DNA from: an uncultured Actinomycetes bacterium
GTDB taxonomy: Bacteria; Actinomycetota; Acidimicrobiia; IMCC26256; JACDBD01
Reading direction: 5' to 3'
Assembly: GCA_963768605.1 (NCBI GenBank)
Contig: CAVYIP010000007.1
Location: forward strand, 44,726-108,725
Length of the DNA: 64,000 nucleotides
Under the pieces are notes generated by a model that saw only the letters and a list, made by a program, of their open reading frames with translations, searched no databases and was not told where the DNA came from. Of the stretch, positions 4,950-64,000 are shown piece by piece. Made by a program: the position numbers and the translations under genes. How positions within the stretch are numbered: the first letter of the stretch is position 1; every line of letters begins with the position of its first letter.

Positions 4950-5264
4950 ATGCGAGAGATCGTCCGAACAGAGGGTCTGGGTGCCCGTCCCGCCGGCGCG
5001 AACGGCGGGCCGGAGGAGCGTCGCTGGCAGGAGCAGGCCAACTGCCTGGGGGTCGATCCCGACCTCTTCTTCCCCGAGCGGGGCGCCTCCACCAAGGAGG
5101 CCAAGGCGGTGTGCCGGGGCTGTGAGGTCCGGGTGGAGTGCCTCGAGTACGCCCTCAGCCACGGCGAGAAGTTCGGCATCTGGGGCGGCCTGTCCGAGCG
5201 GGAGCGCCGCCGGGTCCGGCGCCAGCGGGCCCTCGAGCGCCAGCGCCGCGCCCTCACCGCCTGA
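4950..5264 (+). CDS. whiB: WhiB family transcriptional regulator (WhiB2-like)
   Basis: C-X..-CRGCEVRVEC four-Cys pattern plus GIWGGLSERERRR. An AT-rich island lies upstream at about 4875-4905. Confidence 0.9.
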   Translation: MREIVRTEGLGARPAGANGGPEERRWQEQANCLGVDPDLFFPERGASTKEAKAVCRGCEVRVECLEYALSHGEKFGIWGGLSERERRRVRRQRALERQRRALTA

Positions 5265-40905: not shown

Positions 40906-43860
40906 ATGCGCGTGCCCACAACCCCACGTCGCCGGCGCGGCTTCCGCGTGCGCGGATGGATCATCGCGGGGGTCATCCTGCTGGTGATCCTGCTGTTCAG
41001 CCTGCGCGGCCTGGCGGGCTTCTACACCGACTTCCTCTGGTTCGACTCCATCGGGCAGGGCGGCACGTGGCGAGAGCTCCTCTCGGCCAAGGTCGTGCCG
41101 GCGCTCGTGTTCACGCTGGTGTTCTTCGTGATGATGCTGGCGAGCCTGCTGATCGCCGATCGCCTGGCCCCGAAATACCGATCCATGGGCCCCGAGGACG
41201 AGCTCGTCGAGCGCTACCAGCAGTTCGTGTCGCCGTACCAGGGGCGGATCCGCGTCGGCGTCTCGCTGTTCTTCGCGTTGATCGCGGGCGTGGGGGTCTC
41301 CTCGCAGTGGCAGGAATGGGTGCTGTTCACCCACCGGGTCGACTTCGGTGTCAAGGACCCGCAGTTCAACCGGGACATCGGCTTCTACGTCTTCCAGCTG
41401 CCGTTCCTGCGCTTCATCGCCAACTGGCTCTTCGCCGGCCTCGTGATCGTGCTGTTCGTGACGGCGGTCGCGCACTACCTCAACGGCGGCATCCGATTCC
41501 AGAGCCCGTTCCAACGAGTGACCCCCCAAGTCAAGGCGCACCTGTCGGTGATCCTCGCCGTGATGGCGCTCGTGAAGACGGCGCAGTACTACCTCGACCG
41601 CTTCAACCTCGACTTCTCGCAACGTGGCGTCGTCACCGGCGCCAGCTACACCGACGTGAAGGCGCAGTTGCCGGCGCTGAACCTGTTGATCTTCATCTCG
41701 ATCGTGGCCGCGGGATTGTTCATCTGGAACATCTGGCGGCGGGGCTGGGTGCTCCCGATCATCGCCGTCGGCCTCTGGGGATTCGTCTCGATCGTCATCG
41801 GCACGATCTACCCGGCCGGCGTCCAGAAGTTCCGGGTCGAGCCGAACGAGTTCCAGAACGAGCAGGCGTACATCGAGCGCAACATCGCGGCGACACGCGG
41901 GGCGTTCGGGCTCGCGAAGGTCAACAACCAGCCCTTCAACTATCAGCAGAACCTCGACGCGTCCGTCGTCAGTCAGAACGCGGCCGTCGATCGACAACGC
42001 CCGCCTGTGGGATCCGAAGGTCATCCAGTCGACGTACCAATCACTCCAGGGCCTCCAGACCTTCTACAAGATCGACGACGTCGACATCGACCGGTACGGG
42101 GTCGGCGACCAGACCCGCCAGGTCGTGCTCTCCGCGCGCGAGATCAGCCAGGGTGAGCTTCCGAGCCAGTCGTGGGTGAACCAGCACCTCGTGTACACGC
42201 ACGGCTACGGGATCATCGCGTCGCCGACGAACGTCGCCGCCCAGGACGGGAACCCCGACTTCCTCCTCAGCGGGATCCCCGTCCCCAAGGACGCGCCGAT
42301 CGCGCTCAACCAACCCGAGTTGTACTTCGGTGAGCGCCAACCCGGGTACGCGCTCGTGGACGCCAAGCAACGCGAGTTCAACTACTCACGTCCCGGTCGC
42401 GCCGACGCGACGACGCGCTACAAGGGCAAGGACGGGGTCAAACTCGACAACCCGATCCGTCGGGCTGCCTTCGCGTTGCGCTTCGGCGACATCAACCCGC
42501 TCATCTCGGGGCAGGTCGGCGGGGGCACGAAGGTCCTGTACGTCCGCGACATCAAGGACCGGGTGAAGAAGCTCGCCCCGTTCCTCGACTTCGACGCCGA
42601 TCCGTACCCGGTCGTCAGCGGCGGCCGCGTCACGTGGGTCCTCGACGCGTACACCACGACGAGCCGTTACCCGTACTCGCAGATGACGTCGGGGCCGAGC
42701 GACACCGGTCTCAACCACAAATTCAATTACGTGCGCAACTCGGTGAAGGCGACGGTCGACGCCTACGACGGCACGGTGAAGTTCTACGTCATCGACCCGA
42801 AGGACCCGCTCATCCGGTCGTACCGGTCGGCGTTCCCGGACCTGTTCACCGACTTCAACAAGATGCCGAAGGACCTCCAGGCGCACCTGCGCTACCCGGA
42901 GGACCTGTTCCGGGTGCAGTCGGACATGTACTCCCGCTACCACGTCACCGAGAGCCGGCGCTTCTACCAGGGGAGCGCGAAGTGGCTCCTGTCCCCCGAC
43001 CCGGGCTCGGGTCGGCTGACGGCGGCACAGCTGCAGGCGGTGCACCGCCCCGGACTCGACGCCGGCCAGGAGAGGCGCAGGCGCAACCTCGACCGGCGCG
43101 CGCATGCGGCCCTACTACCTCTACATCAACCAGCCGGGGGAGTCGGAGCCGAGCTTCATCATCCTCCAGCCGTTCGTCCCGGTGTCGGCCGGGAACAAGC
43201 AGACGCGCCTGGTGTCGTTCATGACGGCGAGCTCCGACCCGAAGAATTACGGCCAGCTGTCGGCGTTCGAGATGCCACAGGGGGAATCGGTCCTCGGCCC
43301 GGTGCAGATCGACAACCGGATCAAGAGCACGCCCGAGGTCTCGCGCAACCTCACGCTGCTCAACCAGCAGGGCTCGACCGTGATCCAGGGGAGCCTGCAG
43401 CTCATCCCCGTCGGCAACTCGATCCTCTACATCCGGCCCTTCTACGTGCAGGCAGCCGGAGAATCGAGCTATCCGCAGTTCCGTTTCGTCGTCGTCGCGT
43501 ACGCCGGTCAAGACCCCGTCCTGGCGTCCACCGTCAACGACGGCCTGGCCCAACTGTTCGGCCAGCCACCGGCGCAGCCGCTGCCCGGTGGTGGCGCGGC
43601 GCCGACCACCCCCACCCCGCCCACGGGCGGGCAACGTGCAGGATCTCCTGAACCAGGCCTCCGCCAAGTACCAGCAGGCCCAGGATGCGTTGCGCCAGGG
43701 CGATCTGGGTACCTACCAGCAACTGATCAACCAGGTCGGCGACCTCATCAACCAGGCCCAGCAAGCGGCCGGGGGCGGCGGCGGCGGGACCGGCGCCACG
43801 ACGACGACCACGACGCCCGCCCGCCAGACGTCGGCCACGGGCGCGGCCGCCGAGCCCTGA
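40906..43860 (+). pseudogene. UPF0182 family multi-pass membrane protein; 3 frame breaks
   Basis: FYTDFLWFDSIG, FYVFQLPFL, and seven N-terminal TM helices. The large extracytoplasmic part continues in ORFs 42125, 43104 and 43588 (HLVYTHGYGII..., YYLYINQPGE...LIPVGNSILYIRPFYVQA). Breaks are near 41985, 43090 and 43630. Confidence 0.85.
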
Positions 43861-43923
43861 CCCGGCGGCGGGGGCGGGGAATCGAGCCGGAATCGAGCGG
43901 GGGAATTGGTCGGAGACCCCCGG

Positions 43924-43953
43924 GATTGTTACTATCTACGTAGTGGAAATTCC
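43924..43953. promoter_or_regulatory. AT-rich motif upstream of sufB (GATTGTTACTATCTACGTAGTGGAAATTCC), paralogous to 57706-57739
   Basis: It shares GATTGT, CGTAGTG and RAAAT(T)CC blocks with the site upstream of the second suf locus. It contains the CTACGTAG palindrome and lies ~70 bp upstream of the sufB ATG. Confidence 0.4.
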
Positions 43954-44020
43954 CGGAACCCCTGCCCCCGGGGACGTTCCGGACCCTGAGACCGCCACCC
44001 GGTAGCGGAGGCGAGGGCGC

Positions 44021-45430
44021 ATGGCTGTCAGTGGAATCGATCTCGGCAAGTACAAGCTCGGCTGGGCCGACAGCACGGACGACTACGCCTACATCCCGAA
44101 GAAGGGCCTGAACGAGGAGATCGTCCGCGAGATCTCCGGCCAGAAGTCCGAGCCCGACTGGATGCGGGACTTCCGGCTGAAGTCGCTGAAGCGGTTCGAG
44201 CGCAAGCCGATGCTCGAGTGGTTCGCCAAGAACATGCCGACCATCGACTTCGACGACATCTACTACTACCTGAAGCCGACCGACAAGGGAGAGGTCGCCG
44301 ACAACTGGGACATGCTCCCCGAGTCGATGAAGGCGACCTACGAGAAGCTCGGCATCCCCGAAGCGGAGCGGAAGTATCTCGCCGGTGTGACGGCGCAGTT
44401 CGAGAGCGAGACCGTCTACCACAAGAACCGTGACGAGCTCGCCAAGCAGGGTGTCCTGTTCACCGACATGGACACCGCGGTGCGCGAGTACCCGGAGATC
44501 GTGCGCGAGCACTTCGCAACGGTCATCCCGCCGGGCGACAACAAGTTCGCCGCGCTCAACTCGACGGTGTGGTCGGGTGGCTCGTTCATCTACGTGCCGC
44601 CGGGCGTGCACGTCGAGATGCCGCTGCAGGCGTACTTCCGCATCAACGCGGAGAACGCGGGCCAGTTCGAGCGGACGCTGATCATCGCCGACGAGGGCGC
44701 TTCGGTGCACTACGTCGAGGGATGCTCGGCTCCGATCTACACCGGAGACTCGCTGCACTCGGCCGTGGTGGAGCTCGTCGCCAAGCCCGGCGCGCGCATC
44801 CGGTACACCACGATCCAGAACTGGTCGCCGAACGTCTACAACCTGGTCACGAAGCGGGCCAAGGCCGAGCGCGAGGCGACCGTCGAGTGGATCGACGGCA
44901 ACATCGGGTCGAAGCTCACGATGAAGTACCCGTCGGTCGTGATGACGGGTCCGAAGGCGCACGGTGAGGTGCTGTCGGTCGCGTACGCGGGCGAGGGCAT
45001 GCACCAGGACGCGGGGGCCAAGATGACCCACGTCGCGCCCGACACGACCTCGATCATCGAGTCGAAGTCGATCTCGAAGGACGGCGGGCGCACGACCTAC
45101 CGCGGCCTGGTGAAGGTCGAGGAGGGCGCCCACAACGTGAAGAGCCACGTCCGCTGCGACGCGCTGATCCTCGACGAGGACAGCCGCTCCGACACGTACC
45201 CGTACATGGAGATCGAGGAGAAGGACGCCCGCATCGGGCACGAGGCCACGGTCTCGAAGGTCGGTGAGGACCAGATCTTCTATCTGATGAGCCGCGGGCT
45301 GAGCGAGCAGCAGGCGACGGCGATGATCGTGAACGGCTTCATCGAGCCCATCGTCAAGACGCTGCCGATGGAGTACGCAGTCGAGCTGAGCCGGCTCATC
45401 GAGCTCAACATGGAAGGAGCCGTTGGTTAA
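44021..45430 (+). CDS. sufB: Fe-S cluster assembly protein SufB
   Basis: Intact 469 aa, with characteristic ..KPMLEWF..., FERTLIIADEGASVHYVEGCSAP and IGHEATVSKVGEDQIFYLMSRGL. Confidence 0.95.
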   Translation: MAVSGIDLGKYKLGWADSTDDYAYIPKKGLNEEIVREISGQKSEPDWMRDFRLKSLKRFERKPMLEWFAKNMPTIDFDDIYYYLKPTDKGEVADNWDMLPESMKATYEKLGIPEAERKYLAGVTAQFESETVYHKNRDELAKQGVLFTDMDTAVREYPEIVREHFATVIPPGDNKFAALNSTVWSGGSFIYVPPGVHVEMPLQAYFRINAENAGQFERTLIIADEGASVHYVEGCSAPIYTGDSLHSAVVELVAKPGARIRYTTIQNWSPNVYNLVTKRAKAEREATVEWIDGNIGSKLTMKYPSVVMTGPKAHGEVLSVAYAGEGMHQDAGAKMTHVAPDTTSIIESKSISKDGGRTTYRGLVKVEEGAHNVKSHVRCDALILDEDSRSDTYPYMEIEEKDARIGHEATVSKVGEDQIFYLMSRGLSEQQATAMIVNGFIEPIVKTLPMEYAVELSRLIELNMEGAVG

Positions 45431-45437
45431 CGGCTCC

Positions 45438-46737
45438 ATGACCGCGTTCACGCCCGAAGCCTCACGCGCGCTCGGCGGGCCCGACTGGCTCGTCGAGCGT
45501 CGTCTTGCGGCGGCCGAGCAGCTCGACGGGATCACCTGGCCCACCGACGCCGAGGAGATCTGGCGCTACAGCCGCATCGACGAGCTCGACCTCGACCGCT
45601 TCCGACCGCCGTCGCGCGACGAGCTGGGCGAGCCCGGCCCGGAGTCGGCGCCCGGCGGCGGCCCGGTCGCAGCCGAAGCGGGCGAGCGCGCCGGCCTCGT
45701 GGTGGTACGCAACGGTCGGGTCGTGCACCACGAGCTCGACGACGCGCTCGCGGGGAAGGGCGTGGTCGTCTGCGGGCTCGCGACGTGCGAGGAAGCCGAC
45801 GTCGCCGAGGTGCTGGGGTCGTGCTCGCAGGCGTCGCCCGACGCGTTCACGGTCTTGCACGACGCGTTCCTCGCCGGCGGGGCGTTCATCAAGGTTCCTG
45901 CCGGCGTCGTCGTCGACAAGCCGATCATCGTCCTCCACTGGTCGGAGGGCGAGGGCCTCGTGACCTTCCCGCACACGCTGGTCGTCGCGGACGAGAGCTC
46001 GGAGATCACGGTCGTCGACCGCTTCGGCACACCCGATGTCGGTGGTTCCGGCCATCTCGTCGATGCCGTCGTCGAGCTCGCTCGTCGGCGACAACGCCCG
46101 GCTCCGGTACCTGTCCGTGCAGGAACACGGCCCCACGACGTGGCAGGTGGCGCTGCAGCGCGCGCACGTCGGGCGTGACGCCTCGCTGCACTCGTCGGCA
46201 GTCGCGTTGGGGGGCGACTACGCGCGCCTGCGGAGCGAGTCGCTGCTCGGCGGCGACAACGCCGAGAGCGATCTGATGGCCGTCTACTTCGGCGACCACA
46301 CCCAGATGCTCGACTTCCGCACGCTCCAGGACCACGACGCCCCCAACACCCGCAGCGATCTGCTGTTCAAGGGCGCGGTCGAGGATCAGGCGCACTCGGT
46401 GTACTCGGGGCTCATCCGGCTCCGCCCGGACGCGCGCAAGGCGGTCGCGAACCAGACGAACCGCAACCTCGTGCTGACCGAAGGCGCGGGGGCCGACTCG
46501 ATTCCCAACCTCGAGATCGAAGCCAACGACGTGAAGTGCTCGCACGCGAGCGCGGTCGGGCCCATCGACGAGGAGCAGCTCTATTACCTCGAGAGCCGCG
46601 GCGTTCGACCGGAGGACGCCGAACGGCTGATCGTCCTGGGATTCTTCGACGACGTGCTGGACCGACTGCCCGTCCCGACGCTGGTCCGGGCGCTCCGGCG
46701 CAGCGTGGTCGAGAAGGTCGAGCACCGCCGTGGGTGA
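45438..46737 (+). pseudogene. sufD: Fe-S cluster assembly protein SufD; one frame break
   Basis: The N-terminal half is in ORF 45423. The C-terminal half (NTRSDLLFKGAV.D.A.SVYSGLIR..P.A.K..A.QTNRNL.L...A.ADSIPNLEI.ANDVKCSHAS.VGP) is in ORF 46036-46737. The break is near 46080. Confidence 0.9.
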
Positions 46738-47044
46738 CCTGCGCGTGTGCTCGGTCAAGGACGTCGAGGCGGGATCCGCCAGGCGCTTCGACGTCGACGG
46801 TCAGCGCCTGTGCGTCGTGCGCATCGGCGACGACTTCTACGTCATCGACGACACGTGCTCGCACGCCGACTACTCGTTGTCGGAGGGCGACGTCTGGGAG
46901 GACGACCTCGAGATCGAGTGCCCGAAGCACGGGTCCACGTTCTCGCTCGAAACGGGCGAGCCGGCGACCCTGCCCGCCACGCAGCCGGTGCGGGTGTACG
47001 ACGTCAAGATCGACGGCGACGACGTGGTGGTGACGAACGCGTGA
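46730..47044 (+). CDS. Rieske [2Fe-2S] ferredoxin-like protein of the suf operon
   Basis: CSH...17 aa...CPKHG Rieske motif. 104 aa, overlapping both neighbours. Confidence 0.85.
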   Translation: MGDLRVCSVKDVEAGSARRFDVDGQRLCVVRIGDDFYVIDDTCSHADYSLSEGDVWEDDLEIECPKHGSTFSLETGEPATLPATQPVRVYDVKIDGDDVVVTNA

Positions 47045-47868
47045 GCACGCTGCGGATCGCGGGGTTGCGGGTCGCGGTCGACGGACAGGAGATCCTGCGC
47101 GGCGTCGACCTGGAGGTCTCCTCGGGCGAGGTCCACGCACTGATGGGCCCGAACGGCTCGGGAAAGTCGACGCTCGCCCACGCCCTCATGGGTCGGCCGG
47201 AGTACGAGGTGCTCGGCGGCTCGGTCACCCTCGACGGCGAGGAGCTGTTGGGCCTGCCGACGTGGGAGCGCGCCGCCAAGGGGCTCTTCCTCGCGATGCA
47301 GTACCCGGTCGAGGTGGCGGGCGTGCGCCTGGTCGACTTCCTCGGCGCGGCGATCCGCGGCCGGGGCGGAGAGCCGAACGGCCTCGCCGAGCGACTCGCC
47401 CGGGAGGCGGAGCGGCTGTCGGTCGGCGACCAGTTCCTGACCCGAGGCGTCAACGTCGAGTTCTCCGGCGGCGAGCAGAAGCGCGCCGAGACGCTCCAGC
47501 TCGCCGTGCTCGAGCCCAAGATCGCGGTGCTCGACGAGATCGACTCCGGCCTCGACGTCGACGCGCTCCGCGACGTCGCCCGGCGGGTCGAGGCGATGAC
47601 CGAGGAGAGCGGCCTCGGTGTGCTCGCCATCACCCACTACGCGCGGGTGCTCAACGAGCTGCGCGCCGACCGGGTGCACGTGCTCATGGCGGGACGCGTC
47701 GTGACCAGCGGCGGTCCCGAGCTCGCCGACGAGCTCGAACGGGTCGGCTACGAGGGCCTCGCCGAGGAGCTCGGCGTGGAGACGCTCGCCGTCGAGGCGC
47801 CCGCCGAGCCCGACCCGTTCACCGACACGACGATCGAGTCGAACCCCTTCGCGGATCCGCTCGCCTAG
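47041..47868 (+). CDS. sufC: Fe-S cluster assembly ATPase SufC (copy 1, actinobacterial type)
   Basis: GTG at 47041. Walker A GPNGSGKST, GLFLAMQYPVEV, FSGGEQKR, Walker B VLDEIDSGLD and ITHY. Confidence 0.88.
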   Translation: MSTLRIAGLRVAVDGQEILRGVDLEVSSGEVHALMGPNGSGKSTLAHALMGRPEYEVLGGSVTLDGEELLGLPTWERAAKGLFLAMQYPVEVAGVRLVDFLGAAIRGRGGEPNGLAERLAREAERLSVGDQFLTRGVNVEFSGGEQKRAETLQLAVLEPKIAVLDEIDSGLDVDALRDVARRVEAMTEESGLGVLAITHYARVLNELRADRVHVLMAGRVVTSGGPELADELERVGYEGLAEELGVETLAVEAPAEPDPFTDTTIESNPFADPLA

Positions 47869-48570: not shown

Positions 48571-49863
48571 ATGCAGACGACGGATCGGAATCTGATGGAC
48601 CAGAGGGTAGCCGACGGACCCGTCCAGTTCGACCCGTTCGAGCTGCCCGACACGATCCAGCTCGGCGGCATCGACGATCCGTATCCGTATCTCGCGGCGG
48701 CGCGCCGGCAGGGCTCGGTGGCTGGCGGAGTGGCCGTTCCCGGGCGACGTGGTGGCGCTCGACGAGGACGCCGAGAGCGTCGTCGGCAGTCGACCCGTCG
48801 TTCAACGTGGTGGGGCACGACGACGTGATGACGGTGTTGCGTGATCACGAGACGTACTCGTCGACGGTGCTCTCCGAGATCATGGGCCCGATGCTCGACC
48901 ACACGATGATCGCGATGGACGAGCCCGAGCACCGGGCCCACCGCGCGCTCGTCGCGCCGGCGTTCCGTCCGAAGCTCCTCGCGCGGTGGCAGGAGGACCT
49001 CGTGCGACGTGTGGTCGACGAGTTGATCGACTCCTTCGCGCCGCTCGGTCGTGCCGATCTCGTCCGCCGCCTGACGTTCGCGTTTCCCGTGCGTGTGATC
49101 GCCCGCATCCTCGGGCTTCCGGAACGTGACGCCGAGCAGTTCCAACGCTGGTCGCTCGAGCTCATCAGCATGGTCGTCGAACTGGGACCGAGGCGTCGCG
49201 GCGGCGCACGCGCTGCGCGACTATTTCGCCGAACAGGTCGCCGAACGCCGAGCGCGGCCACGAGACGATCTCATCAGCGAGCTCGTGCAGACGGAGGTCG
49301 ACGGGCAGGGCCTGACCGACGAGGACATCTTCGCCTTCCTCCGACTGCTGCTCCCGGCCGGCATCGAGACCACCTACCGCTCGCTCGGCAACCTCCTGTT
49401 CGCCTTGCTCACCCACCCCGATCAGCTCGACGAGGTCACCCGGCAACCCGAGCTGCGCGGCGCCGCCATCGAGGAGGCGCTGCGCTGGGAGACACCGGTC
49501 GTCATGGTCCCGCGCCAAAGCGTCCGGGACGCACGATTGGGCGGCGTCGACATCCCCGCCGGCCGAGTCCTCAACCTCTTCATCGGCTCGGCCAATCGCG
49601 ACGAGAGCCAGTACGAGGAGCCCGACCGGTTCGACATCCACCGCACGCCCGCACCGCATCTGTCGTTCGGGTCCGGACCGCACATGTGCCTCGGCATGCA
49701 TCTCGCGCGCATGGAGACTCGCGTCGCACTCGATGCCACGCTCGAGCGACTCCACGATCTCCGAATCGACCCTGATGCCCCACGGCCCCAGGTCGTCGGC
49801 ACCGCCTTCCGGTCGCCCGACGCGCTCCCGGTCCGCTTTCTGGCGGACGGCGGCGAGTCCTAG
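48571..49863 (+). pseudogene. Cytochrome P450; about 3 frame breaks
   Basis: Segments lie in ORFs 48082 (tail), 48807 and 49126: MDEPEHRAHR, ..AGIETT (I-helix), EEALRWETP (ExxR), and heme loop FGSGPHMCLGMHLAR. Breaks are near 48725, 48790 and 49185. Confidence 0.9.
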
Positions 49864-54677: not shown

Positions 54678-55133
54678 ATGCTCGCCGCCGGAGACCGCGC
54701 TCCTTCGCTGGTGCTACCCGACGCCGCCACCGGCGAATCCGTCACCGACCCGTGGCGGGAGGGCCCGGTCGTGCTGGCCTTCTTCAAGACCACGTGCCCG
54801 GTCTGCCAGATGGCCGCGCCCAAGGTGCAGGCGCTGGCCGAGGCGGGGGTGCGCGTCGTCGCGGTCGGCGAGGACGCGCCGCCCGAGATCCAGTCGTACG
54901 CCGAGCGGCACGGGCAGAAGGTCACCACCCTGAGCGAGACCGCTCCGTATCCCGCCTCGGACGCCTTCGGCATCGACACCGTCCCGACGCTCTTCCGCGT
55001 CGACGAGGACGGCACCGTCCGCGACGCGGTGGTGTCGTGGGATCGCGACCGGTGGAACCGACTCGCCGAGGCCGCCGGCGGCGCCGCAGTGTCCGACGAG
55101 GGCGACGGTCTCCCTCCGTTCCGCCCCGGCTGA
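54678..55133 (+). CDS. Thioredoxin-fold redoxin (TlpA/AhpC-TSA-like)
   Basis: VVLAFFKTTCPVCQ CxxC motif. 151 aa. Confidence 0.75.
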   Translation: MLAAGDRAPSLVLPDAATGESVTDPWREGPVVLAFFKTTCPVCQMAAPKVQALAEAGVRVVAVGEDAPPEIQSYAERHGQKVTTLSETAPYPASDAFGIDTVPTLFRVDEDGTVRDAVVSWDRDRWNRLAEAAGGAAVSDEGDGLPPFRPG

Positions 55134-55178: not shown

Positions 55179-55670
55179 CTAGGCGTCGACCGACTCGCGT
55201 TCGTCGAGGCCCTGCTGGAGGGTGTTCCAGGCGAGGGTGGCGCACTTGATGCGCACCGGGAACTTCACGACGCCCTGGAGCGCCTCGAGGTCGCCGAGGC
55301 GCGCGCCCTCGAGCTCGGCGGTGAGGTCGGAGCCGTCGCTCTCGCCCTCGAGCTTCGACTCGTGGATCGACATCAGCGCCTTGAACGCGCGGATGAGCTT
55401 GCGGGCCTCGTCGACCGGCTTCCCCTTCACGGCCGAGCTCATCATCGACGTCGACGCCTGGCTGATCGAGCAGCCCTGACCGTCGATCTTGACGTCGCGC
55501 ACGACCTCGGAGTCGGGGTCGATGTCGAGATAGAGCACGACCTCGTCGCCGCACAGCGGGTTGAACCCCTCGGCCTTGGTGGCCGGAGGCACCGACAGCT
55601 CGCCGCGGTTCCGGGGCGAGCGGTAGTGGTCGAGGATGATCTCTCGGTAGAGGTCTTCGAGGCCGGGCAT
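55179..55670 (-). CDS. sufU: Fe-S cluster assembly sulfur-transfer/scaffold protein SufU
   Basis: LYREIILDHYRSPRN, NPLCGD, and IDGQGCSISQAS...KCATLAW Cys ligands. ATG at 55670. Confidence 0.9.
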   Translation of the reverse strand: MPGLEDLYREIILDHYRSPRNRGELSVPPATKAEGFNPLCGDEVVLYLDIDPDSEVVRDVKIDGQGCSISQASTSMMSSAVKGKPVDEARKLIRAFKALMSIHESKLEGESDGSDLTAELEGARLGDLEALQGVVKFPVRIKCATLAWNTLQQGLDERESVDA

Positions 55671-55684
55671 CGGGGACTCCGTTC

Positions 55685-56923
55685 TCAGATGGCGAAGAAC
55701 TTCTCGGCCTTGGCCAACGACTCGACGAGCGCGTCGGCGTCGCTCTCGTCGTTGTACACGTAGAGCGAGGCGCGGGTGGTGGCGGGCACGCCGAGCACCC
55801 GCATCAGGGGCTTCGCGCAGTGGTGTGACGCCCGCACGCACACGCCGTCCTCGTCGAGCACCTGGGCGACGTCGTGGGCGTGGATGCGGTCGAACAGGAA
55901 CGAGATCGCGCCGCCGCGGTGGTCGACGTCGCGGGGGCCGTGGATGTGCAGCCGGTCCTCGAAGCGCTCCTCGAGCACGCGGAGCGTGTACTCGGTCAGC
56001 TGCTTCTCGTGGGCGCGGACGGCGTCCATGCCCAGCGCCGAGAGGTAGTCGATGGCGGCGGCGAGACCACTGGCCTCGACGAACGGCATGGTCCCGGCCT
56101 CGAACTTCCACGGCACCTCGTTGGGCTCGAAGCCGTCGAAGCGCACGTCGGTGATCATCTCGCCGCCGCCGAGGAACGGCGGCATCGCGTCGAGCAGCTC
56201 GGCCCGGGCCCACAGACCGCCGAGACCGGTCGGGCCGAGCATCTTGTGGCCGGTGAAGCCGACGAAATCGGCGTCCCACGCCTGCACGTCGACCGGCAGG
56301 TGGGGGACGGCCTGGGCGGCGTCCACGTTCACGAGCGCGCCCGCCGCGTGGGCGGCGTCGGACAGCAACCGGATGTCGTTGAGGGTGCCGAGCACGTTCG
56401 ACATCGCGGTGACCGACAGCAGCTTCGCACCGTCGAGCAACCGGTCGAGGTCGGTGAGGTCGAGCTGGAAATCGTCCGTGATGGGGATCCAGCGCAGCTC
56501 GACGCCGCGCTCTTCGACGAGGATGTGCCACGGCACGATGTTGGCGTGATGCTCCATCTCGGTGATGACCACCGGGTCGCCGGGGCCGAGGTTCTTGCGG
56601 GCCCAGGAGTACGCGACGAGGTTCATCGCCTCGGTGATGTTCTTCGTGAAGACGATCTCGCCCGTAGCACGTGCGTTGAGCAGCTTGGCCACCTTGGCGC
56701 GAGCTCCCTCGTAGGCGGCGGTCGACTCCTCGGCGATCGTGTAGATGCCGCGGTGCACGTTCGCGTAGTGGTGGCGGTGGTGGTGCTCCATGGCGTCGAG
56801 CACCGCACGTGGCTTCTGGGACGACGACGCCGAGTCGAGGTACACGAGCGGCTTGCCGTTGACCTTGCGTTCGAAGATCGGGAAGTCGGCCTTGACTCGG
56901 CTGACGTCGAGGACCTCGGTCAT
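55685..56923 (-). CDS. sufS: Cysteine desulfurase SufS
   Basis: FPIF....GKPLVYLDSA..SQKP, NVHRG, FTGHKMLGPTG (PLP Lys), and RASHHCA (active Cys). The ATG overlaps the sufC2 stop (ATGA). Confidence 0.92.
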   Translation of the reverse strand: MTEVLDVSRVKADFPIFERKVNGKPLVYLDSASSSQKPRAVLDAMEHHHRHHYANVHRGIYTIAEESTAAYEGARAKVAKLLNARATGEIVFTKNITEAMNLVAYSWARKNLGPGDPVVITEMEHHANIVPWHILVEERGVELRWIPITDDFQLDLTDLDRLLDGAKLLSVTAMSNVLGTLNDIRLLSDAAHAAGALVNVDAAQAVPHLPVDVQAWDADFVGFTGHKMLGPTGLGGLWARAELLDAMPPFLGGGEMITDVRFDGFEPNEVPWKFEAGTMPFVEASGLAAAIDYLSALGMDAVRAHEKQLTEYTLRVLEERFEDRLHIHGPRDVDHRGGAISFLFDRIHAHDVAQVLDEDGVCVRASHHCAKPLMRVLGVPATTRASLYVYNDESDADALVESLAKAEKFFAI

Positions 56924-57700
56924 CCGCCGACCTCCGCGGTGCGGAAGGCGTCGAAACCCTCGCGCTCGAGATTGTCGGCGAGCTCGCGGCCGCCGGAGGC
57001 GACGATGCGCCCGCCGAGCAGGATGTGCACCGCGTCGGGCGTGAGGTGCTCGAGGATCCGCCGGTAGTGCGTGATGAGCAGGATCCCGAGCTCCGGCCGC
57101 GCCTCGCGGACCGCGTCGATGCCGCGCGGCGACGACGCCGAGCGCGTCGATGTCGAGACCGGAGTCGGTCTCGTCGAGCACGGCGAAATCGGGCTCCATC
57201 ACCGCCATCTGGAGGATCTCGTTGCGCTTCTTCTCACCACCCGAGAACCCCTCGTTGAGGTATCGCTCGATGAACCGGGAGTCCATGCCGAGGCGCTTCG
57301 CCCAGTCCAGGACCGCCATTCGGACCTCGAGCACCGAGAAGTCGTCGATGCCCTTCCGGGCCGACATCGCCTGACGCAGGAAGTTCAGCACGCTCACCCC
57401 GGGGATCTCCTCGGGGTGCTGGAAGCCGAGGAACAGCCCCCGGCTGGCGCGCTCGTTGGTCGACAGGGCGGTGACGTCCTCGCCCTCGAACAGGATCCGC
57501 CCCGCCGTCACCTCGTAGGCGGGGTTCCCGAGGAGCGTCGCCGCCAGGGTCGACTTGCCCGAGCCGTTCGGGCCCATGAGGGCATGGACCTCGCCGGCGG
57601 GCACGGCGAGCGACACTCCCTGGAGAATCTCCTTGCCCTCGACCGCGACGTGGAGATCGTCGATCTCGAGCACGGGGTCGGGGTTCGAATCCGAGGCCAT
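56920..57700 (-). pseudogene. sufC: Fe-S cluster assembly ATPase SufC (copy 2); one frame break
   Basis: GPNGSGKST, GLFLGFQHPEEIPGV, NEGFSGGEKKRNEILQM and LDETDSGLDIDAL. After an extra base near 57125 the C-terminus (RGIDAVRE..LLITHY..GGRIVASGG) continues one frame off and ends at TGA 56922-56920. Confidence 0.9.
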
Positions 57701-57705: not shown

Positions 57706-57739
57706 GATTGTAATAACACTACGGACGTAGTGAAAATCC
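57706..57739. promoter_or_regulatory. AT-rich motif upstream of sufC2-sufS-sufU (GATTGTAATAACACTACGGACGTAGTGAAAATCC)
   Basis: It contains the perfect inverted repeat CACTACG-GA-CGTAGTG and shares GATTGT / CGTAGTG / AAAATCC blocks with 43924-43953. Confidence 0.4.
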
Positions 57740-58791: not shown

Positions 58792-59725
58792 CTATGTACG
58801 AACGGATACTGGGACCGCACGGGCAAGGCATTGCTTCACCTGTGCGACGCCGTAGGCGGCTTCTTCCGAAGAGCTCGCGACCGGTTGCAGATGGAACGTG
58901 CGGACGCCGGCCTCGACGTACGGCACGAGCGCAGCGGCGATGTCCTCGGGCGTTCCCGCCGGGCTGTAGCGGTCGAGGGCGTCGAACGGCATGCCGTAGA
59001 AGCGCTCCATCGCAGGGGCGAGCCTGGCGCGGCCGTCCTCGACGGTGGGCCCGAAGCCGCACCACAGCTCGAGCGAGTGTCGCCATGCGACGTCCTCGCG
59101 GCCGGCGCTCTCGGCGTGCTCGGCGATGCGCGCGATGGACTCGGCGCAGCGCCGCGGGGAGGAGAACACAGCGGTCCACCCGTCACCGAGCGTCGCGGCC
59201 CGCACGGAGCGCAGCGTCGCTCTTGCCGCCGACGATCAGGGGAACCCACGGATCCGGGGCCGGCAACACCTGCACGTCTTGCAGACGGAAGAAGTCGCCG
59301 TCGAGCGTGACCGACTCGCCGGCAAGAAGCCGGCGCAACACGTACAGCGACTCCGTGGCGCGGCGACCGCGCGTGCGCATGTCGACACCGCAGCTCTCGA
59401 CCTCACGCGGGTCTTCGCCCGCGATCCCGACGCCGAAGGTGAGCCGGCCCGGCGCGAAATGCGCGAGCGTCGCCACCTGCCGGGCGACGGCGACGGGATG
59501 GCGTAGCGGCAACTGGTAGACGCCCACGTACAAGCCGATCGTGGGGTCGAGACCGGCATACGTTGCGACCGTGGTCAAGCCGTCGACGCCGTATCCGCCT
59601 TGGAAGCACACGTGGTCGGTGCTCCCGACGAAGTCGAGGCCGGCGGCCGCCGCGATCGCCACGCGATCGCGCGCGTCCTCATTCAGCGTCTCGACCGTGA
59701 GGATCCCGACGCGGATATCGCTCAA
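58792..59725 (-). pseudogene. LLM class F420-dependent oxidoreductase; one frame break
   Basis: ORF 59183-59725 (..GLDFVGSTDHV...FGVGIAGE...LIVGGKSDAAL) continues in ORF 58792-59205 (RAATLGDGW...GTPEDIAAAL). The break is near 59200. Confidence 0.8.
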
Positions 59726-59860
59726 GCTTCCGTCCTTGCCACCCGGGGGGCCGGACGGCTGCTATGCGACCTTGCGGGTGGACAGTTGACCCGAGACCAT
59801 CAACGGTCCGATGGACCATTGGGTCTGTAGACCCCCAAACCCTAACGAACGTTACGGGCG

Positions 59861-60891
59861 TCAGGCAGGGAGCCGAAAGAGACAGCGCGAAGTCGCCGCC
59901 GGGGTCGGTCCACCAGGCAGCAACGGCGAGGCCGGCGGCGGCAAGCTCCGCCTCGACCCGCTCACGGCGGAACTTGGCGCTGATCTCCGTGCGCATCTCC
60001 TCGCCGTCGGCAAACTCGACCCGCAGATCGAGCTCGCGCACGCGCACCGTTTGTGCGCCTTGCGACCGGAGGCGCATTTCGATCCACTCGTCCGCCGGGT
60101 TCCACCGCGCGATGTGCGTGAAGCGTTCCGGCGCGAAGTCGGCCGCGAGCTCCCGATTCAGCACGGAGAGGACGTTGCGGTTGAACGCCGCCGTCACCCC
60201 GGCGGAGTCGTCGTACGCGGCTTCCAGCCGGCGGGGGTCCTTGACGAGGTCGGTGCCGAGCAGGAGCGCGTCGTCCGGCGCGAGCCCGGCCGCGATGCTC
60301 CGGTAGAAGCGCGCCCGGCCGTCCGGGTCGAGGTTGCCGATCGTGCTGCCGAGGAACGCCACGAGGCGCGTGCCGCCCGTGGGCAGGCGGTCGAGGTGGC
60401 GCTCGAAGTCGCCGACGACGGCGTGCACGTCGACGCCGGCGTACTCGGCCTCGATCGCGCTTGCCGCGTCGCGCAGGGTCGGCTCGCTGACGTCGAACGG
60501 AACGAACCGCCGCAGCGAACCGTGCGCCGACAGCGCGTCCAGTAGCAGCCGCGTCTTCTCCGACGTGCCCGAGCCCAGCTCGACGAGCGTGTCCGCGGAC
60601 GTGCGCGCCGCGATATCGCCGGCGTGCCCGGCGAGGATCACGCGCTCGGTACGCGTCGGGTAGTACTCCGGCAGCCGAGTGATCTCGTCGAAGAGCAGGC
60701 AGCCTTCCTCGTCGTAGAACCACTTCGGCGGCAGGACCTTCGGGCTCGCGGTGAGCCCGCCGCGCGCGTCGGCACGCAGCGCGGCGGTGAGGTCGTCGGG
60801 CCCGAGGTGGACGTCGACGCGAGACGGCGATGAGGTGGGGGAGATGGCGGACCTCTCGATCAGAACGGGCGGACTTCGAGCTTGTCGTCAC
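59861..60891 (-). pseudogene. egtD: Histidine N-alpha-methyltransferase EgtD; start and stop both displaced from the main frame
   Basis: [47 protein letters not shown] and [14 protein letters not shown] match EgtD. The main frame has no ATG/GTG/TTG upstream of the conserved N-terminus and no stop until 59679. GTG 60891 and TGA 59863-59861 each become in-frame with one +1 step. Confidence 0.82.
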
Positions 60892-61609
60892 CGAGCTCGA
60901 CGACGGAGCCGTCGTCGACGACCGCCCAGCTCGGGTCGTCGTCGTACGGCTCGGACGCGATCACGACCGCCCCGGTGAGCTGGCGATCGTCGAGCACGAA
61001 GAGCGAGTTTCGGCACGCAGTGGCCGCGACCCGCTCACCGTCGGTCAGCAGGAAGTTCAGGCGCGCCGTCGTGAGCTCGTCGACGAGTCCGACGACGGAG
61101 ACCAAGGCCTCGGCGGGCGGCGCGCCGGCGTCGAGACGGTCCAGCACGAGCGCGAACAAGAGCTCGGAGTCCGTCGCGCCCGCCATCGCGTGCACACGCG
61201 TCTCGCTGACCTTGCGCCGCAGCTCCCGGCCGACGCCGGTGCTGAATCCCGGCACGAACCCGTTGTGCGAGAAGAGCCACGGGCCGTCCGTGAACGGCGG
61301 GGTGCACGTCTCCTCGACCGCCATGCCCGGTGAGGCCGATCGCACCGCGGCGAGAACGGCGTTCGAGCTCACGAGGCCGGCGATGCTCGCGAACGAGGGG
61401 TCGGCCCAGATCTGACGCGTCGTGCGGTAGCGAGCGGGCTCGGCCCGCTTGTCGCGGTCGTACCAGCCGACACCGAACCCGTCGGCGTTGATCGTCCCGT
61501 GGGTCTGGTAGCGCGGCGCGAACGCTTGTTGCAGGAGCGAGTGCTCCGGCTTGATGATCAGCTTCTCGAGCGTGACCGAAGGTCCGACGTAGGCGAGGTG
61601 GCGGCACAT
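60860..61609 (-). CDS. egtC: Ergothioneine biosynthesis amidohydrolase EgtC (class II glutamine amidotransferase fold)
   Basis: The N-terminus is MCRHLAY (nucleophile Cys2), with ..[10 protein letters not shown].. and ..LFSHNG.. Intact, 249 aa. Confidence 0.88.
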
Positions 61610-61615
61610 GTCGGT

Positions 61616-62824
61616 CTAGGCGTCGGCCGCGCAGCGGAAGCCGGCGAAGATCTGCCGGCGGATCGGATAGTCCCAGTTCCGGAACGTGGCGCGACGCACG
61701 CTGTCGTCGCTCGCCCACGATCCGCCCCGCAGCACTTTGTACTCGGGGCCGAAGAACACCTCCGAGTACTCGCGGTACGGGAACGACACGAAGCCCGGGT
61801 ACCCGGCGAAGTCGGTGGCCGTCCACTCCCATACGTCGCCGACCATCTGCTGCGGCCCATCGGGCTCGCCGTCGCGCGCCGCCGCCGTCTCCCATTCCGC
61901 CTCGGTCGGGAGACGGGCGCCGCGCCACGTGGCGAACGCCTCCGCCTCGTGCCAGCAGACGTGCTGGACCGGCTCGTCGAGCGGCAGCTCCTCCCGCCGA
62001 CCGAAGCGACGGCGCGACCAGTCGCCGCCCCCTTCGCGCCTCCAGAACTGCGGTGCCTCGACCGCCGCATCCTGACGCCAGTCCCACCCCGCGGCGCTCC
62101 ACAGCCGTGCGTCGCCGTAGCCGCCGTCCTCGACGAAGGCGAGGTACTGGCCGTTCGTGACCGGCGTGCGGTCGATCCGGAACGGCGGCATCTCGACCGC
62201 GTGCCGAGGACGTTCGTTGTCGTACACCCACGCGTGCTCGTCCGTGCCGATCGCGTACGTCCCTCCGTCGATCGCCACGTTTTCCGGGACGCCGGACGGG
62301 GGAGCGCCCGGTTCGCGGCCGAGAACGGGCGTCGGGTGCCACCCGTCGGCATCGGGATGGGCGAAGTTCTCCATGAGCTGGATGGTGGCGAGCATCGTCT
62401 CGTCGTGCTGGTGCTCGTGCTGGACGACCATTCCGTACACGAAGCCGTCGCGCACCAGCGGATCGTCGCCGTCGAGATCGATCGTCGCCAGCGCGTCGAG
62501 CACGCGCTTGCGCACGCCGGCGACGAAGGCGCGAGCTTCCGGCGGTCCCAGGATCGGCAGTGACGGGCGGTCCCGGCGCGGGTGCTTGAACGCGTCGTAG
62601 ACGTCGTCGAAGAGCTCATTGGTCGGGGCGGCGCCCACGACGTTGCGCAGCAGCCACAGCTCTTCGTAATGGCCGATGTGCGCGAGGTCCCAGACGAGGG
62701 GCGACATCAGCGGAGAGACCTGGTCGACGAGGTCGGTGTCGGCGATCGGCGCGAGGAGCCCGAGCGTGCGCGCCCGCGCGCCCTCGAGCCCGGCCTCGAC
62801 GCGGCTGGTGGTGTCGACGGTCAC
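61616..62824 (-). CDS. egtB: Ergothioneine biosynthesis sulfoxide synthase EgtB (DinB_2 plus FGE-sulfatase domains)
   Basis: The GTG at 62824 overlaps the egtA stop. Motifs are LVWDLAHIGHYEELW, VVQHEHQHDET, and the C-terminal GDVWEWT...RGGSW. Confidence 0.92.
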   Translation of the reverse strand: MTVDTTSRVEAGLEGARARTLGLLAPIADTDLVDQVSPLMSPLVWDLAHIGHYEELWLLRNVVGAAPTNELFDDVYDAFKHPRRDRPSLPILGPPEARAFVAGVRKRVLDALATIDLDGDDPLVRDGFVYGMVVQHEHQHDETMLATIQLMENFAHPDADGWHPTPVLGREPGAPPSGVPENVAIDGGTYAIGTDEHAWVYDNERPRHAVEMPPFRIDRTPVTNGQYLAFVEDGGYGDARLWSAAGWDWRQDAAVEAPQFWRREGGGDWSRRRFGRREELPLDEPVQHVCWHEAEAFATWRGARLPTEAEWETAAARDGEPDGPQQMVGDVWEWTATDFAGYPGFVSFPYREYSEVFFGPEYKVLRGGSWASDDSVRRATFRNWDYPIRRQIFAGFRCAADA

Positions 62825-64000
62825 GCCCACGTCGCCGCCGCGAACTGGTCGGGCTCGGGGATCAGCGTCCCGTCGTCCTGCCACGCGTCGAGTCGGTCGT
62901 CGGCGGGGCAACGGCCGCGGTCCACGTAGCGGTCGACGAACGCCTCGACCGCCAGCACGGTGGTCGCGTCGGTGCCGAGGCGCACCATCGCCTGCAGCGC
63001 GACGTCGAACGCGTCCCGGGCGGCACCGGCGAGATCGGGATGGCCGAGGCCGTGGCGGGCGGCGTCGAGCCAGCGCCCACGCGTGGGTGCGATCGCGTCC
63101 GCGGCGGCCTCGGCCGCCGTGTCGTCGCACACGAGCGTGGTGGAGACGGCTACGGCGGCGCGCCACCACGGGTCGGGAAGCGAGTCGATCATCCGCATCT
63201 CGAGCCAGCCGCGCGGCCGCACGGGTGGGAACAGCGTCGTGAAGTGGTACTCGACGTCGTCGAGGGTCGGGAAGCCGAGCTCGTGGCCGTCCGCGATCCA
63301 GTCGCCGAGCGTCAGCGGCTCGAGGATGGGCACGTAGCGGGACTCGTCCCGGCGGATGAACATCACGCGCGCCGCGAGCGCGTAGTCGGTCCACTGCCGC
63401 ACCGGGTCGGGCTCGCCGTTGCCGTCGGCGGCGGTGGTGCGGCACTCGTCGACGTCGGTCCAGACCGCCAACCGGCGCGAGCGCCACCCGCTGGGCGCGC
63501 CATCCGACAGCGGCGAGTTGGCGAACGCGGCGGCGAGCAGGGGGCCGGCGTCGTGGGCGCGGTGCCAGCGCCGGGCGGCGTCTTCGGGGGTCGGCCCGAG
63601 GTCGACGTTCACCTGCACGGCGGCGGTCGATCGCATCATCGTGCGACCGGCGGCGCACTGGGCGTCGAAGTAGGCCTCCATCGCCTCGTAGCGGGGCGAG
63701 TCGACGCAGCGGGCCCGGGCGGGGCCGGGATCGAGGCCGAGCCCGACCAGGCCGACGCCGTGGTCCGCGAGGGCGGCGGTCAGCGCGGCGGCGTCGGCGG
63801 CGATGGACGCGCACGCGGGGCCGATGCCGCGCAGCGGCGGCGAGCTCAGCTCGACCTGGCCGCCGGGCTCGAAGGTGAGGCGGCTGCCGGCGGGAAGCTC
63901 GGCACCCGCCTCACCCACGACCTCGGGCCGTACCGGTTCGGTCGGGTCGGCCAGGCAGACGGCCAGCCACTCGATCTCGACGCCGACCCGCCCCGAGGGC
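62821..64000 (-). CDS. egtA: Glutamate-cysteine ligase family protein EgtA; 5' end beyond the window
   Basis: The GCS2-type body is (FEPGGQVELSS...STAAVQVNVD...RMFIRR..) and the frame stays open upstream of the listed Met to the window end. Position is directly upstream of egtB. Confidence 0.82.
   Translation of the reverse strand, partial: PSGRVGVEIEWLAVCLADPTEPVRPEVVGEAGAELPAGSRLTFEPGGQVELSSPPLRGIGPACASIAADAAALTAALADHGVGLVGLGLDPGPARARCVDSPRYEAMEAYFDAQCAAGRTMMRSTAAVQVNVDLGPTPEDAARRWHRAHDAGPLLAAAFANSPLSDGAPSGWRSRRLAVWTDVDECRTTAADGNGEPDPVRQWTDYALAARVMFIRRDESRYVPILEPLTLGDWIADGHELGFPTLDDVEYHFTTLFPPVRPRGWLEMRMIDSLPDPWWRAAVAVSTTLVCDDTAAEAAADAIAPTRGRWLDAARHGLGHPDLAGAARDAFDVALQAMVRLGTDATTVLAVEAFVDRYVDRGRCPADDRLDAWQDDGTLIPEPDQFAAATWA

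What the first reader, a model, noticed from the sequence alone, without database searches (positions are those of the whole stretch)
43924..43953. Shared AT-rich motif upstream of both suf loci (site 1, upstream of sufB)
GATTGTTACTATCTACGTAGTGGAAATTCC stands out as an AT-rich island in very GC-rich DNA. It shares three blocks in the same order with 57706-57739, upstream of sufC2-sufS-sufU: GATTGT, CGTAGTG and RAAAT(T)CC.

The core is palindromic (CTACGTAG here, CACTACG-GA-CGTAGTG at site 2). This fits a dimeric regulator co-controlling the two halves of the split suf system. It does not resemble the CAAC-N6-GTTG SufR operator described for cyanobacteria, and no regulator gene is adjacent.
Basis: seen in the sequence. 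Interest (0 to 1): 0.65.

Follow-up and report, generated by a model that had tools for sequence, protein, structure and literature searches.

The report
Shared operator of two suf operons
A 26-base palindromic DNA site sits on the promoters of both operons that build iron-sulfur clusters in this soil actinobacterium and most of its relatives, so it is very probably where one still-unidentified repressor binds to switch the two operons together.

Summary
The shared unit is a 26-bp palindrome, ATTTC[C/T][C/A]CTA[C/T]-N4-[G/A]TAG[G/T][G/A]GAAAT, at 43925-43950 (before sufB-sufD-Rieske-sufC1) and 57712-57737 (before the minus-strand sufC2-sufS-sufU). A matrix built from relatives scores them 34.8 and 31.4 bits. 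The next best position in 64 kb scores 0.3, and the best of 200 random 64-kb sequences scored 7.8.

The window is from a soil Acidimicrobiia bacterium. The site precedes sufB in 70 of 80 related genomes. It also precedes sufC2 in 67 genomic or metagenomic loci, sufD in two, and an nfu carrier gene in one lineage. It precedes nothing unrelated in high-GC DNA.

The site always overlaps core promoter elements. At sufB its left half is an extended -10 (TGnTACTAT). At sufC2 it abuts, or lies exactly 13 nt upstream of, the -10 of a leaderless promoter. This fits a dimeric repressor.

The regulator was not found. No transcription factor is linked to these loci. SufR-family (COG2345) genes of this class sit beside other Fe-S genes and carry different palindromes. 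The site shares its A/T-tract frame and an ATTTTCAC half-site start with the M. tuberculosis SufR operator.

Verdict: a new operator and regulon of a known kind, moderately interesting.

The parts
43925..43950 (.). Operator site 1, ATTGTTACTATCTACGTAGTGGAAAT (26-bp imperfect palindrome)
   Evidence: Scores 34.8 bits with the symmetric matrix. It is the only conserved block in the alignment of sufB upstream regions. The same site is present in 70 of 80 relatives.
43927..43935 (+). Predicted extended -10 of the sufB promoter (TG-T-TACTAT). The predicted transcription start lies about 43941-43943, inside the operator.
   Evidence: TGnTACnAT is present upstream of sufB in 68 of 81 sequences. The -10 ends 32-96 nt (median 51) before the start codon. 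This is inferred from the consensus; the start site was not mapped.
43906..43911 (+). -35-like TTGGTC, 18 nt upstream of TACTAT
   Evidence: A TTG at a 16-18 nt spacer occurs only in the window and its closest relatives (11 of 68).
44021..45430 (+). sufB
   Evidence: Pfam SUFBD_core, E = 1.3e-88.
45423..46737 (+). sufD, split into two reading frames by an apparent frameshift
   Evidence: SufBD_N falls in 45423-46178 and SUFBD_core in 46036-46737.
46730..47044 (+). Rieske-type ferredoxin
   Evidence: Pfam Rieske, E = 6.5e-19. It is conserved after sufD in relatives.
47041..47868 (+). sufC1, last gene of operon 1
   Evidence: NCBIfam TIGR01978 SufC, 271 bits against a cutoff of 212.8. It is 54% identical to sufC2.
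57712..57737 (.). Operator site 2. + strand: AATAACACTACGGACGTAGTGAAAAT. Gene orientation: ATTTTCACTACGTCCGTAGTGTTATT.
   Evidence: Scores 31.4 bits. Close relatives have the same architecture.
57707..57712 (-). -10 hexamer TACAAT of the sufC2 promoter. Six nt separate it from the ATG at 57700, so the mRNA is predicted to be leaderless.
   Evidence: The promoter scan finds TTTTCA/TTCACT-N18/16-TACAAT. In 65 of 67 sufC2 sites a TAnnnT is followed by 6-8 nt and an in-frame ATG or GTG.
56936..57700 (-). sufC2. The C-terminal part is out of frame, so the ORF runs on into sufS.
   Evidence: Pfam ABC_tran. The translation becomes Arg/Pro/Ala-rich after about residue 190, and relatives align only to residues 1-190.
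55685..56935 (-). sufS (cysteine desulfurase)
   Evidence: Pfam Aminotran_5, E = 6.8e-129.
55179..55650 (-). sufU
   Evidence: Pfam NifU_N, E = 2.7e-24.

Best explanation
The two sites are operators for one homodimeric winged-helix repressor. That repressor co-regulates the Gram-positive-type SUF Fe-S assembly genes of Acidimicrobiia: sufB-sufD-Rieske-sufC1 and sufC2-sufS-sufU, plus sufD or nfu in some lineages.

Shown here:
- A 26-bp two-fold symmetric site with invariant CTA/TAG cores 10 bp apart and ATT/AAT ends 22 bp apart.
- Conservation of that site across the class.
- Restriction of the site to Fe-S assembly genes.
- Overlap with core promoter elements in every context.

At sufB the site covers the extended -10 and the predicted start site. 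At sufC2 it covers about -37 to -12 in one group of loci and about -51 to -26 in the other, relative to a leaderless start.

Inferred:
- Recognition helices read the CTAY/RTAG cores in successive major grooves.
- Wings or AT-hooks sit in the terminal A/T minor grooves.
- The bound dimer excludes RNA polymerase.
- By analogy with SufR, IscR and RisR, the protein carries an Fe-S cluster, and loss of the cluster under Fe-S demand releases it and derepresses both operons together.

The regulator is encoded elsewhere in the genome and is not identified.
For: Specificity. Only two hits occur in 64 kb, at 34.8 and 31.4 bits; the next scores 0.3 and the null maximum is 7.8.

Conservation. The site precedes sufB in 70 of 80 Acidimicrobiia genomes. 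It precedes sufC2 in 67 loci. It precedes sufD in L020 and L077 and nfu in L097, L102 and L210. The flanks are unconserved.

Symmetry. L062 has a perfect palindrome, ATTATTCCTATCT|AGATAGGAATAAT. At sufC2 sites both halves change together between clades, CCACTAC...GTAGTGG against CTCCTAT...ATAGGAG.

Position. The left half at sufB is TGnTACTAT. In 65 of 67 sufC2 sites a TAnnnT follows, then 6-8 nt, then a start codon. The gap between operator and -10 is quantised at -1/0 (24 sites) or +13/14 (41 sites). Centres near -4, -24.5 and -38.5 all lie inside the polymerase footprint.

Precedent. Holo-SufR and holo-RisR repress suf promoters through palindromes with A/T-rich flanks (PMC8371249; 10.64898/2025.12.26.696629; PMC9973013).
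Against: No protein was identified, and no binding or expression data exist.

No transcription factor gene lies within 10 kb of either operon in any of about 150 loci.

Metatranscriptome contigs do not map a start site. Two begin at 43929, and low-depth contigs span the site (43888-44085). That would not fit a start at about 43942 if they are RNA of this organism.

The near-invariance of the left half at sufB is explained by the promoter, so symmetry there is partial.

Fourteen loci with a sufC2-like gene lack the site, and ten lack it before sufB.

For the +13 class alone, a centre near -38.5 would also suit an activator.
Confidence: 0.8

Rival explanations
1. The regulator is a SufR-family (COG2345) protein: a [4Fe-4S] winged-helix repressor with an AT-hook. 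It could be the SufR homologue of Acidimicrobiia or an unlinked paralogue. The site would then be a diverged SufR operator.
For: The M. tuberculosis SufR operator is ATTTTGTCACACT-N5-TGTGAAAAT, 27 bp. Site 2 is ATTTTCACTACGTCCGTAGTGTTATT. The two share the ATTTTCAC start and A/T tracts about 22 bp apart.

SufR depends on A/T-rich flanks read by an AT-hook.

Acidimicrobiia encode at least two COG2345 proteins. Both sit next to Fe-S genes, and both have 25-26 bp ATT...AAT palindromes in their promoters.
Against: No COG2345 gene lies in the window or in about 150 loci.

The SufR homologue (BAN02115 type, 25% identical to Mtb SufR) sits beside a paralogous fdx-sufB-sufC-sufD cluster whose SufB is only 43% identical. 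That locus has different palindromes and no match to this matrix at 6 bits or above.

The second paralogue (BAN04159 type) has ATTTTACCGGCGAATGCCGTGTAAT and scores -9.9.

The core is neither CAAC-N6-GTTG nor ACACT-N5-TGTGA.
Confidence: 0.3
2. The regulator is an Rrf2-family (IscR/RisR-like) Fe-S repressor encoded elsewhere in the genome.
For: Rrf2 proteins have been recruited to SUF or ISC control repeatedly. RisR represses two operons through GAC-N7-GTC with AT-rich flanks, and its cores are also 10 bp apart.

From memory only, the half-site ATAGGAA(T) resembles the B. subtilis CymR box.
Against: The only Rrf2 gene found in 2.4 Mb (L015) has no cysteines, lies beside sulfate ABC transporter genes, and has no site nearby.

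The core spacing differs from the E. coli IscR type 2 site (about 15 bp, recalled from memory).
Confidence: 0.25
3. The site binds a transcriptional activator rather than a repressor.
For: In 41 of 65 sufC2 promoters the site ends exactly 13-14 nt before the -10. That centres it near -38.5, close to class II activator positions.
Against: The same motif overlaps the -10 and the predicted start at sufB, and abuts the -10 in 24 sufC2 promoters. Binding at those positions blocks the polymerase.
Confidence: 0.07
4. The blocks are only generic -35/-10 promoter elements. Alternatively, the palindrome is an RNA hairpin: a terminator of the upstream gene or a 5'-UTR element.
For: TGTTACTAT is an extended -10, and TACAAT follows site 2.

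The site-1 region folds better than shuffles, z = -2.67.
Against: There are no further matches in 64 kb or before unrelated genes.

At sufC2 the site lies upstream of a leaderless start, so it is not transcribed with the gene.

At sufB the left half stays TTGTTACTAT while the right half changes, which breaks pairing.

Site 2 folds no better than shuffles, z = -1.08. No terminator-like site was found and there is no Rfam match.
Confidence: 0.04

Closest known systems
M. tuberculosis SufR (Rv1460) operator, ATTTTGTCACACT-N5-TGTGAAAAT
   Same: It is a palindrome in a suf promoter with terminal A/T tracts about 22 bp apart. Its half-site begins ATTTTCAC. It acts as a repressor site near the start site, and the target is the actinobacterial sufBDCSU-type system.
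   Different: The cores differ: CTAY-N4-RTAG 10 bp apart here, CACA...TGTG 11 bp apart there. Here the core is strongly conserved, whereas Mtb SufR tolerates core mutations. No sufR gene is in or next to these operons. Here two separate operons are controlled.
Cyanobacterial and Streptomyces SufR operator, CAAC-N6-GTTG
   Same: It is a dimeric repressor site in a suf promoter, flanked by A/T-rich DNA.
   Different: The core sequence is unrelated. [quoted passage not shown] The Acidimicrobiia homologue of this SufR sits beside a different, paralogous suf cluster.
Myxococcus xanthus RisR (Rrf2) sites, T(t/g)GAC-N7-GTCC(t/a)
   Same: One Fe-S-sensing repressor controls two separate Fe-S assembly operons through a shared palindrome. 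The cores are 10 bp apart, the flanks are AT-rich, and the sites overlap promoter hexamers.
   Different: The sequence differs. risR is the first gene of the suf operon. The two targets there are isc and suf, not two halves of one suf system.
E. coli IscR type 1 / type 2 sites
   Same: They are 25-29 bp two-fold symmetric sites before isc and suf promoters that sense Fe-S status.
   Different: The consensus and core spacing differ (recalled from memory, not tested). At the E. coli suf promoter IscR activates. No iscR-like gene was found here.

Membership tests
SufR (COG2345) operator / regulon | Palindromic site with A/T-rich flanks overlapping the suf promoter | tested here: met
   A 26-bp palindrome with ATT/AAT ends overlaps the -10 or -35 region at both operons. 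The frame matches that described.
SufR (COG2345) operator / regulon | Core CAAC-N6-GTTG (cyanobacteria, Streptomyces) or ACACT-N5-TGTGA (M. tuberculosis) | tested here: not met
   The core is CTAY-N4-RTAG in about 140 sites. Only the outer ATTTTCAC of site 2 matches the Mtb half-site.
SufR (COG2345) operator / regulon | A sufR gene adjacent to, or first in, the regulated operon | tested here: not met
   tblastn and HMM searches with two Acidimicrobiia COG2345 families and Mtb SufR find nothing in the window or the loci.
SufR (COG2345) operator / regulon | Bound by a [4Fe-4S] SufR dimer | not testable with these tools
   This needs an EMSA or footprint with anaerobically purified protein.
Rrf2 (IscR/RisR/NsrR) operator | An Rrf2 gene with three cluster-ligand cysteines linked to the Fe-S assembly genes | tested here: not met
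   A phmmer search with E. coli IscR over about 2.4 Mb gives one hit, in L015. That protein has no cysteines and lies beside sulfate ABC genes.
Rrf2 (IscR/RisR/NsrR) operator | Match to a described Rrf2 consensus (IscR type 1 or 2, RisR GAC-N7-GTC) | tested here: inconclusive
   The RisR motif does not match in sequence but shares the 10-bp core spacing. The IscR and CymR consensus sequences were only recalled from memory.
Housekeeping sigma-factor promoter elements only | The same blocks occur before many unrelated genes | tested here: not met
   No other hit of 10 bits or more occurs in the window. In the loci and the metagenome scan, high-GC hits precede only suf or nfu genes.
Known structured RNA (Rfam) | Match to a curated covariance model | tested here: not met
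   The whole window gives 0 matches at gathering thresholds.

The most novel reading that the evidence does not exclude
The site is read by a regulator that is neither the canonical SufR nor an IscR-type Rrf2 protein. It could be a third, unlinked Fe-S sensor: a new COG2345 specificity class or a new family.

Acidimicrobiia would then run a three-tier Fe-S network with three distinct 25-26 bp ATT...AAT operators:
- one for the SufR-linked fdx-sufBCD cluster;
- one for apbC and an A-type carrier;
- this one for the sufBD/sufCSU system and nfu.
Probability: 0.2. Interest if true: 0.65.

Novelty: new member of a known kind. Interest (0 to 1): 0.45.

Why it matters
Fe-S cluster assembly is essential. 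Its control is understood mainly in proteobacteria, cyanobacteria and a few Actinomycetes.

Acidimicrobiia are abundant in soil, freshwater and the sea, and few are cultured. Nothing about their suf regulation was found in the literature held here.

This site gives a precise cis-element with half-sites, spacing and promoter geometry. It shows how a suf system split over two loci is kept coordinated. It gives a ready probe, the 26-mer, for fishing out the missing regulator. It also shows that sufC2 mRNAs are leaderless across the class.

The result is a solid comparative-genomics regulon. It is not a new principle.

Tried and rejected
- TetR gene downstream of operon 1 (48558-47869, minus strand). 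It has no homologue in any of 80 related loci, so it was rejected as the regulator.
- ORFs next to sufB in relatives. They encode a GATase, an esterase, a luciferase-like protein, a ferredoxin and an arsenic island with ArsR in L007. None is a conserved regulator.
- The gene divergent from sufC2 in many relatives. It is a large ORF of more than 390 aa, not a regulator (no Pfam scan was run on it).
- The orphan 4-Cys 114-aa protein after sufB. It is present in 61 of 80 loci, including loci without the motif, and absent from the window. It has no Pfam, NCBIfam or PDB match. Rejected as the regulator.
- SufR homologue and second COG2345 paralogue. Their loci carry other palindromes.
- Cysteine-less Rrf2 protein in L015. 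There is no site nearby.
- RGRP plus Cys regular-expression search for SufR-like ORFs. The result was swamped by GC-rich shadow ORFs.
- Microbacterium 'plasmid' as a source of a sufR seed. None is annotated there.
- Metatranscriptome contigs for start-site mapping. They were too fragmentary and mixed-strain.
- Extending the window through exact-protein look-ups. The proteins are not on record.
- First metagenome pattern.
- Metagenome hits inside nrdR coding sequence and in low-GC DNA. These are chance matches.

Full report
**What is in the sequence.** The window is 70.2% GC. It holds only five 30-nt stretches with GC at or below 40%, and two of them are the reported sites.

Site 1 (43924-43953) lies 68 nt before sufB (44021-45430, + strand). 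After sufB come sufD, which is split by a frameshift, a Rieske ferredoxin, and a first sufC (47041-47868).

Site 2 (57706-57739) lies between fabH and a minus-strand ORF starting at 57700. That ORF is a frameshift fusion of a second sufC and sufS, and sufU follows it.

In gene orientation the sites align without gaps: GGATTGTTACTATCTACGTAGTG against GGATTTTCACTACGTCCGTAGTG. The motif is itself a palindrome, so both alignments work.

**Origin and conservation.** SufB retrieves 80 loci from species-representative genomes. Nearly all are labelled Acidimicrobiia, at 74-87% identity. Public runs that hold the sequence are soil metagenomes.

Upstream of sufB, TTGTTACTAT-N5-TAG(G/T)(A/G)GAAAT is present in 66 loci by regular expression and in 70 of 80 by matrix. 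Alignments show that it is the only conserved block.

Many relatives keep the same split layout. A 60-80% identical sufC2-sufS lies 7-10 kb away on the other strand, preceded by a more symmetric version such as ATTCCTCCTATGCCCGTAGGAGAAAT. L062 carries a perfect 26-bp palindrome.

**Specificity.** I built a symmetric 26-nt matrix from 102 half-sites; the half-site is ATTTC[CT][CA]CTA[CT]. It scores 43925-43950 at 34.8 bits and 57712-57737 at 31.4 bits. The third best position scores 0.3. In 200 simulated 64-kb sequences the maximum averaged -5.5 and never exceeded 7.8.

In the 80 loci (1.6 Mb), hits of 14 bits or more precede only sufB, sufC2 or sufD, apart from a second site before sufB in L011 and two weak hits that were not followed up (L062, 14.4 bits; L063, 15.6 bits).

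One metagenome-wide scan for TTTCYMCTAC-N4-RTAGKRGRAA returned 119 loci:
- About 55 are high-GC loci with the site directly before sufC2-sufS, or before sufS alone.
- The low-GC hits are chance matches, and several fall inside nrdR coding sequence.
- L097 and L102 have the site before an nfu (NifU C-terminal domain) gene downstream of typA.

An 85% identical nfu in L210 has the same site. Other nfu lineages do not. The regulon is therefore confined to Fe-S assembly genes.

**Promoter geometry at sufB.** TGnTACnAT, an extended -10, forms the left half of the site in 68 of 81 sequences. It ends 32-96 nt before the start codon. The close relatives of the window add a TTG at the -35 position. The operator therefore spans the -10 and the predicted start site.

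**Promoter geometry at sufC2.** In 65 of 67 sites a TAnnnT follows, then 6-8 nt, then an in-frame ATG or GTG. This is a leaderless architecture.

The gap from the operator end to the -10 takes only two values: -1/0 in 24 sites, including the window, and +13/14 in 41 sites. The promoter scan independently finds TACAAT ending at 57707.

All three operator positions, centred near -4, -24.5 and -38.5, fall inside the polymerase footprint. The first two are incompatible with activation.

**RNA rivals.**
- There is no Rfam match.
- No terminator-like site was found at either location.
- Site 2 folds no better than shuffles.
- At sufB the left half stays fixed while the right half changes between clades, which would break any stem.

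**The regulator.** No transcription factor is linked to these loci. The TetR gene beside operon 1 has no counterpart in relatives, and the neighbours of sufB and sufC2 in relatives are not regulators.

SufR is the known actinobacterial suf repressor. Its M. tuberculosis operator is ATTTTGTCACACT-N5-TGTGAAAAT, and a recent cryo-EM study shows that AT-hooks read the A/T flanks. Site 2 shares the ATTTTCAC start and the same A/T-tract spacing.

That study's supplement lists two COG2345 proteins from the Acidimicrobiia species Ilumatobacter coccineus.
- The SufR-like protein is 25% identical to Mtb SufR. In three contexts it lies divergent from a paralogous fdx-sufB-sufC-sufD cluster whose SufB is only 43% identical to the window's. 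Those loci have different palindromes.
- The second protein lies between apbC and an A-type carrier gene, with ATTTTACCGGCGAATGCCGTGTAAT in its promoter.

Neither locus matches this matrix, and neither family occurs in the window or the loci.

The only Rrf2 gene found has no cysteines and belongs with sulfate uptake genes.

The regulator is therefore unlinked and unidentified. I rate a further COG2345 paralogue at about 0.3, an Rrf2 protein at about 0.25, and something else for the remainder.

**Comparison with what is known, and verdict.** The arrangement works like SufR in actinobacteria and like RisR in Myxococcus, where one Fe-S repressor controls two operons through a shared palindrome with AT-rich flanks.

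It fails two defining tests for a canonical SufR operator, namely the core sequence and linkage to a sufR gene. It also fails the linkage test for Rrf2.

Searches of the held literature for the motif strings, and for suf regulation in Acidimicrobiia, found nothing relevant.

I file it as a new operator and regulon of a known kind. It is well supported as a repressor site, with the protein still to be found.

Noticed in passing
window 45423-46737, 56936-57130, 40906-43860, 58792-59725, 49126-49863: Many genes are split or fused by apparent frameshifts: sufD, the C-terminus of sufC2, UPF0182, a luciferase-like monooxygenase, and a P450. This looks like an error-prone long-read assembly rather than real pseudogenes.
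   Followed up: partly
window 4871-4904 and 4950-5264: A third AT-rich island (TGGCATTGTTGTAATTACATCGGCGTCATTTCCG) lies between a divergent macro-domain gene and a WhiB-family gene. It does not match the suf operator matrix.
   Followed up: no
L045:11469-11813 and 60 other loci (absent from the window): A conserved 114-aa protein with four cysteines (MPMREECKHFQSRTY...CPDDCP...) and a basic tail is encoded right after sufB in 61 of 80 relatives. It has no Pfam, NCBIfam or PDB match. It may be an uncharacterised Fe-S assembly accessory protein.
   Followed up: partly
L082, L085-L088 (around 2800-3000): Acidimicrobiia carry a second, paralogous SUF cluster: ferredoxin-sufB-sufC-sufD, with SufB 43% identical to the window's. 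It is divergent from a SufR-family gene. The intergenic palindromes differ, for example ATTTTGCAAC-N6-CTTGCGCAAT and TTTTCGCA-N9-TGCGAAAC.
   Followed up: partly
L089:4962-5000, L090:4962-5000: A second COG2345 regulator lies between an apbC/Mrp-like gene and an A-type Fe-S carrier gene. The 39-bp intergenic region holds a conserved ATTTTACCGG(C/T)GAATGCCGTGTAAT palindrome, which is probably its own operator.
   Followed up: partly
L057, L047, L050, L029, L024 (upstream of sufC2): In these lineages sufC2 is preceded by a different palindrome, CTGACTAAAACGGTAAGCTTTTAGC, instead of the operator. Their sufB keeps the operator, so the two operons appear to be uncoupled there.
   Followed up: no
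window 43953-43982: A GC-rich inverted repeat, CCGGAAC-N16-GTTCCGG, lies in the predicted sufB 5' UTR. It also reads as an ECF-sigma-like GGAAC-N16-GTT. It is not conserved in the closest relatives.
   Followed up: no
window 59679-63918 (minus strand): Ergothioneine-type genes lie just upstream of fabH-sufC2: an EgtD-like histidine methyltransferase, an EgtC-like amidotransferase and a GCS2 glutamate-cysteine ligase. A redoxin gene (54678-55133) converges on sufU. This is a thiol and redox neighbourhood.
   Followed up: no
L204:790-815: A chance pattern hit, CTTTCTACTACGAACGTAGTAGGAAG, sits 24 nt upstream of a BlaI/CopY-like repressor gene that is paired with a BlaR1-like gene in an unrelated high-GC bacterium. 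Its core resembles the suf operator core. The family assignments here come from reading the translations; no domain search was run.
   Followed up: no
L096, L100, L106, L112, L121, L160, L190, L193, L198, L199: The search pattern recurs inside the nrdR coding sequence of unrelated bacteria. It encodes a conserved peptide (…EISTTDIGEM…). This is a coding-sequence artefact to exclude in any motif scan.
   Followed up: yes
L007:7419-9429: An arsenic-resistance island is inserted between UPF0182 and sufB in one close relative. By reading the translations (no domain search), it encodes a MIP channel, an ArsC-like reductase, ArsR and a glyoxalase-like protein. The suf operator is left intact.
   Followed up: partly
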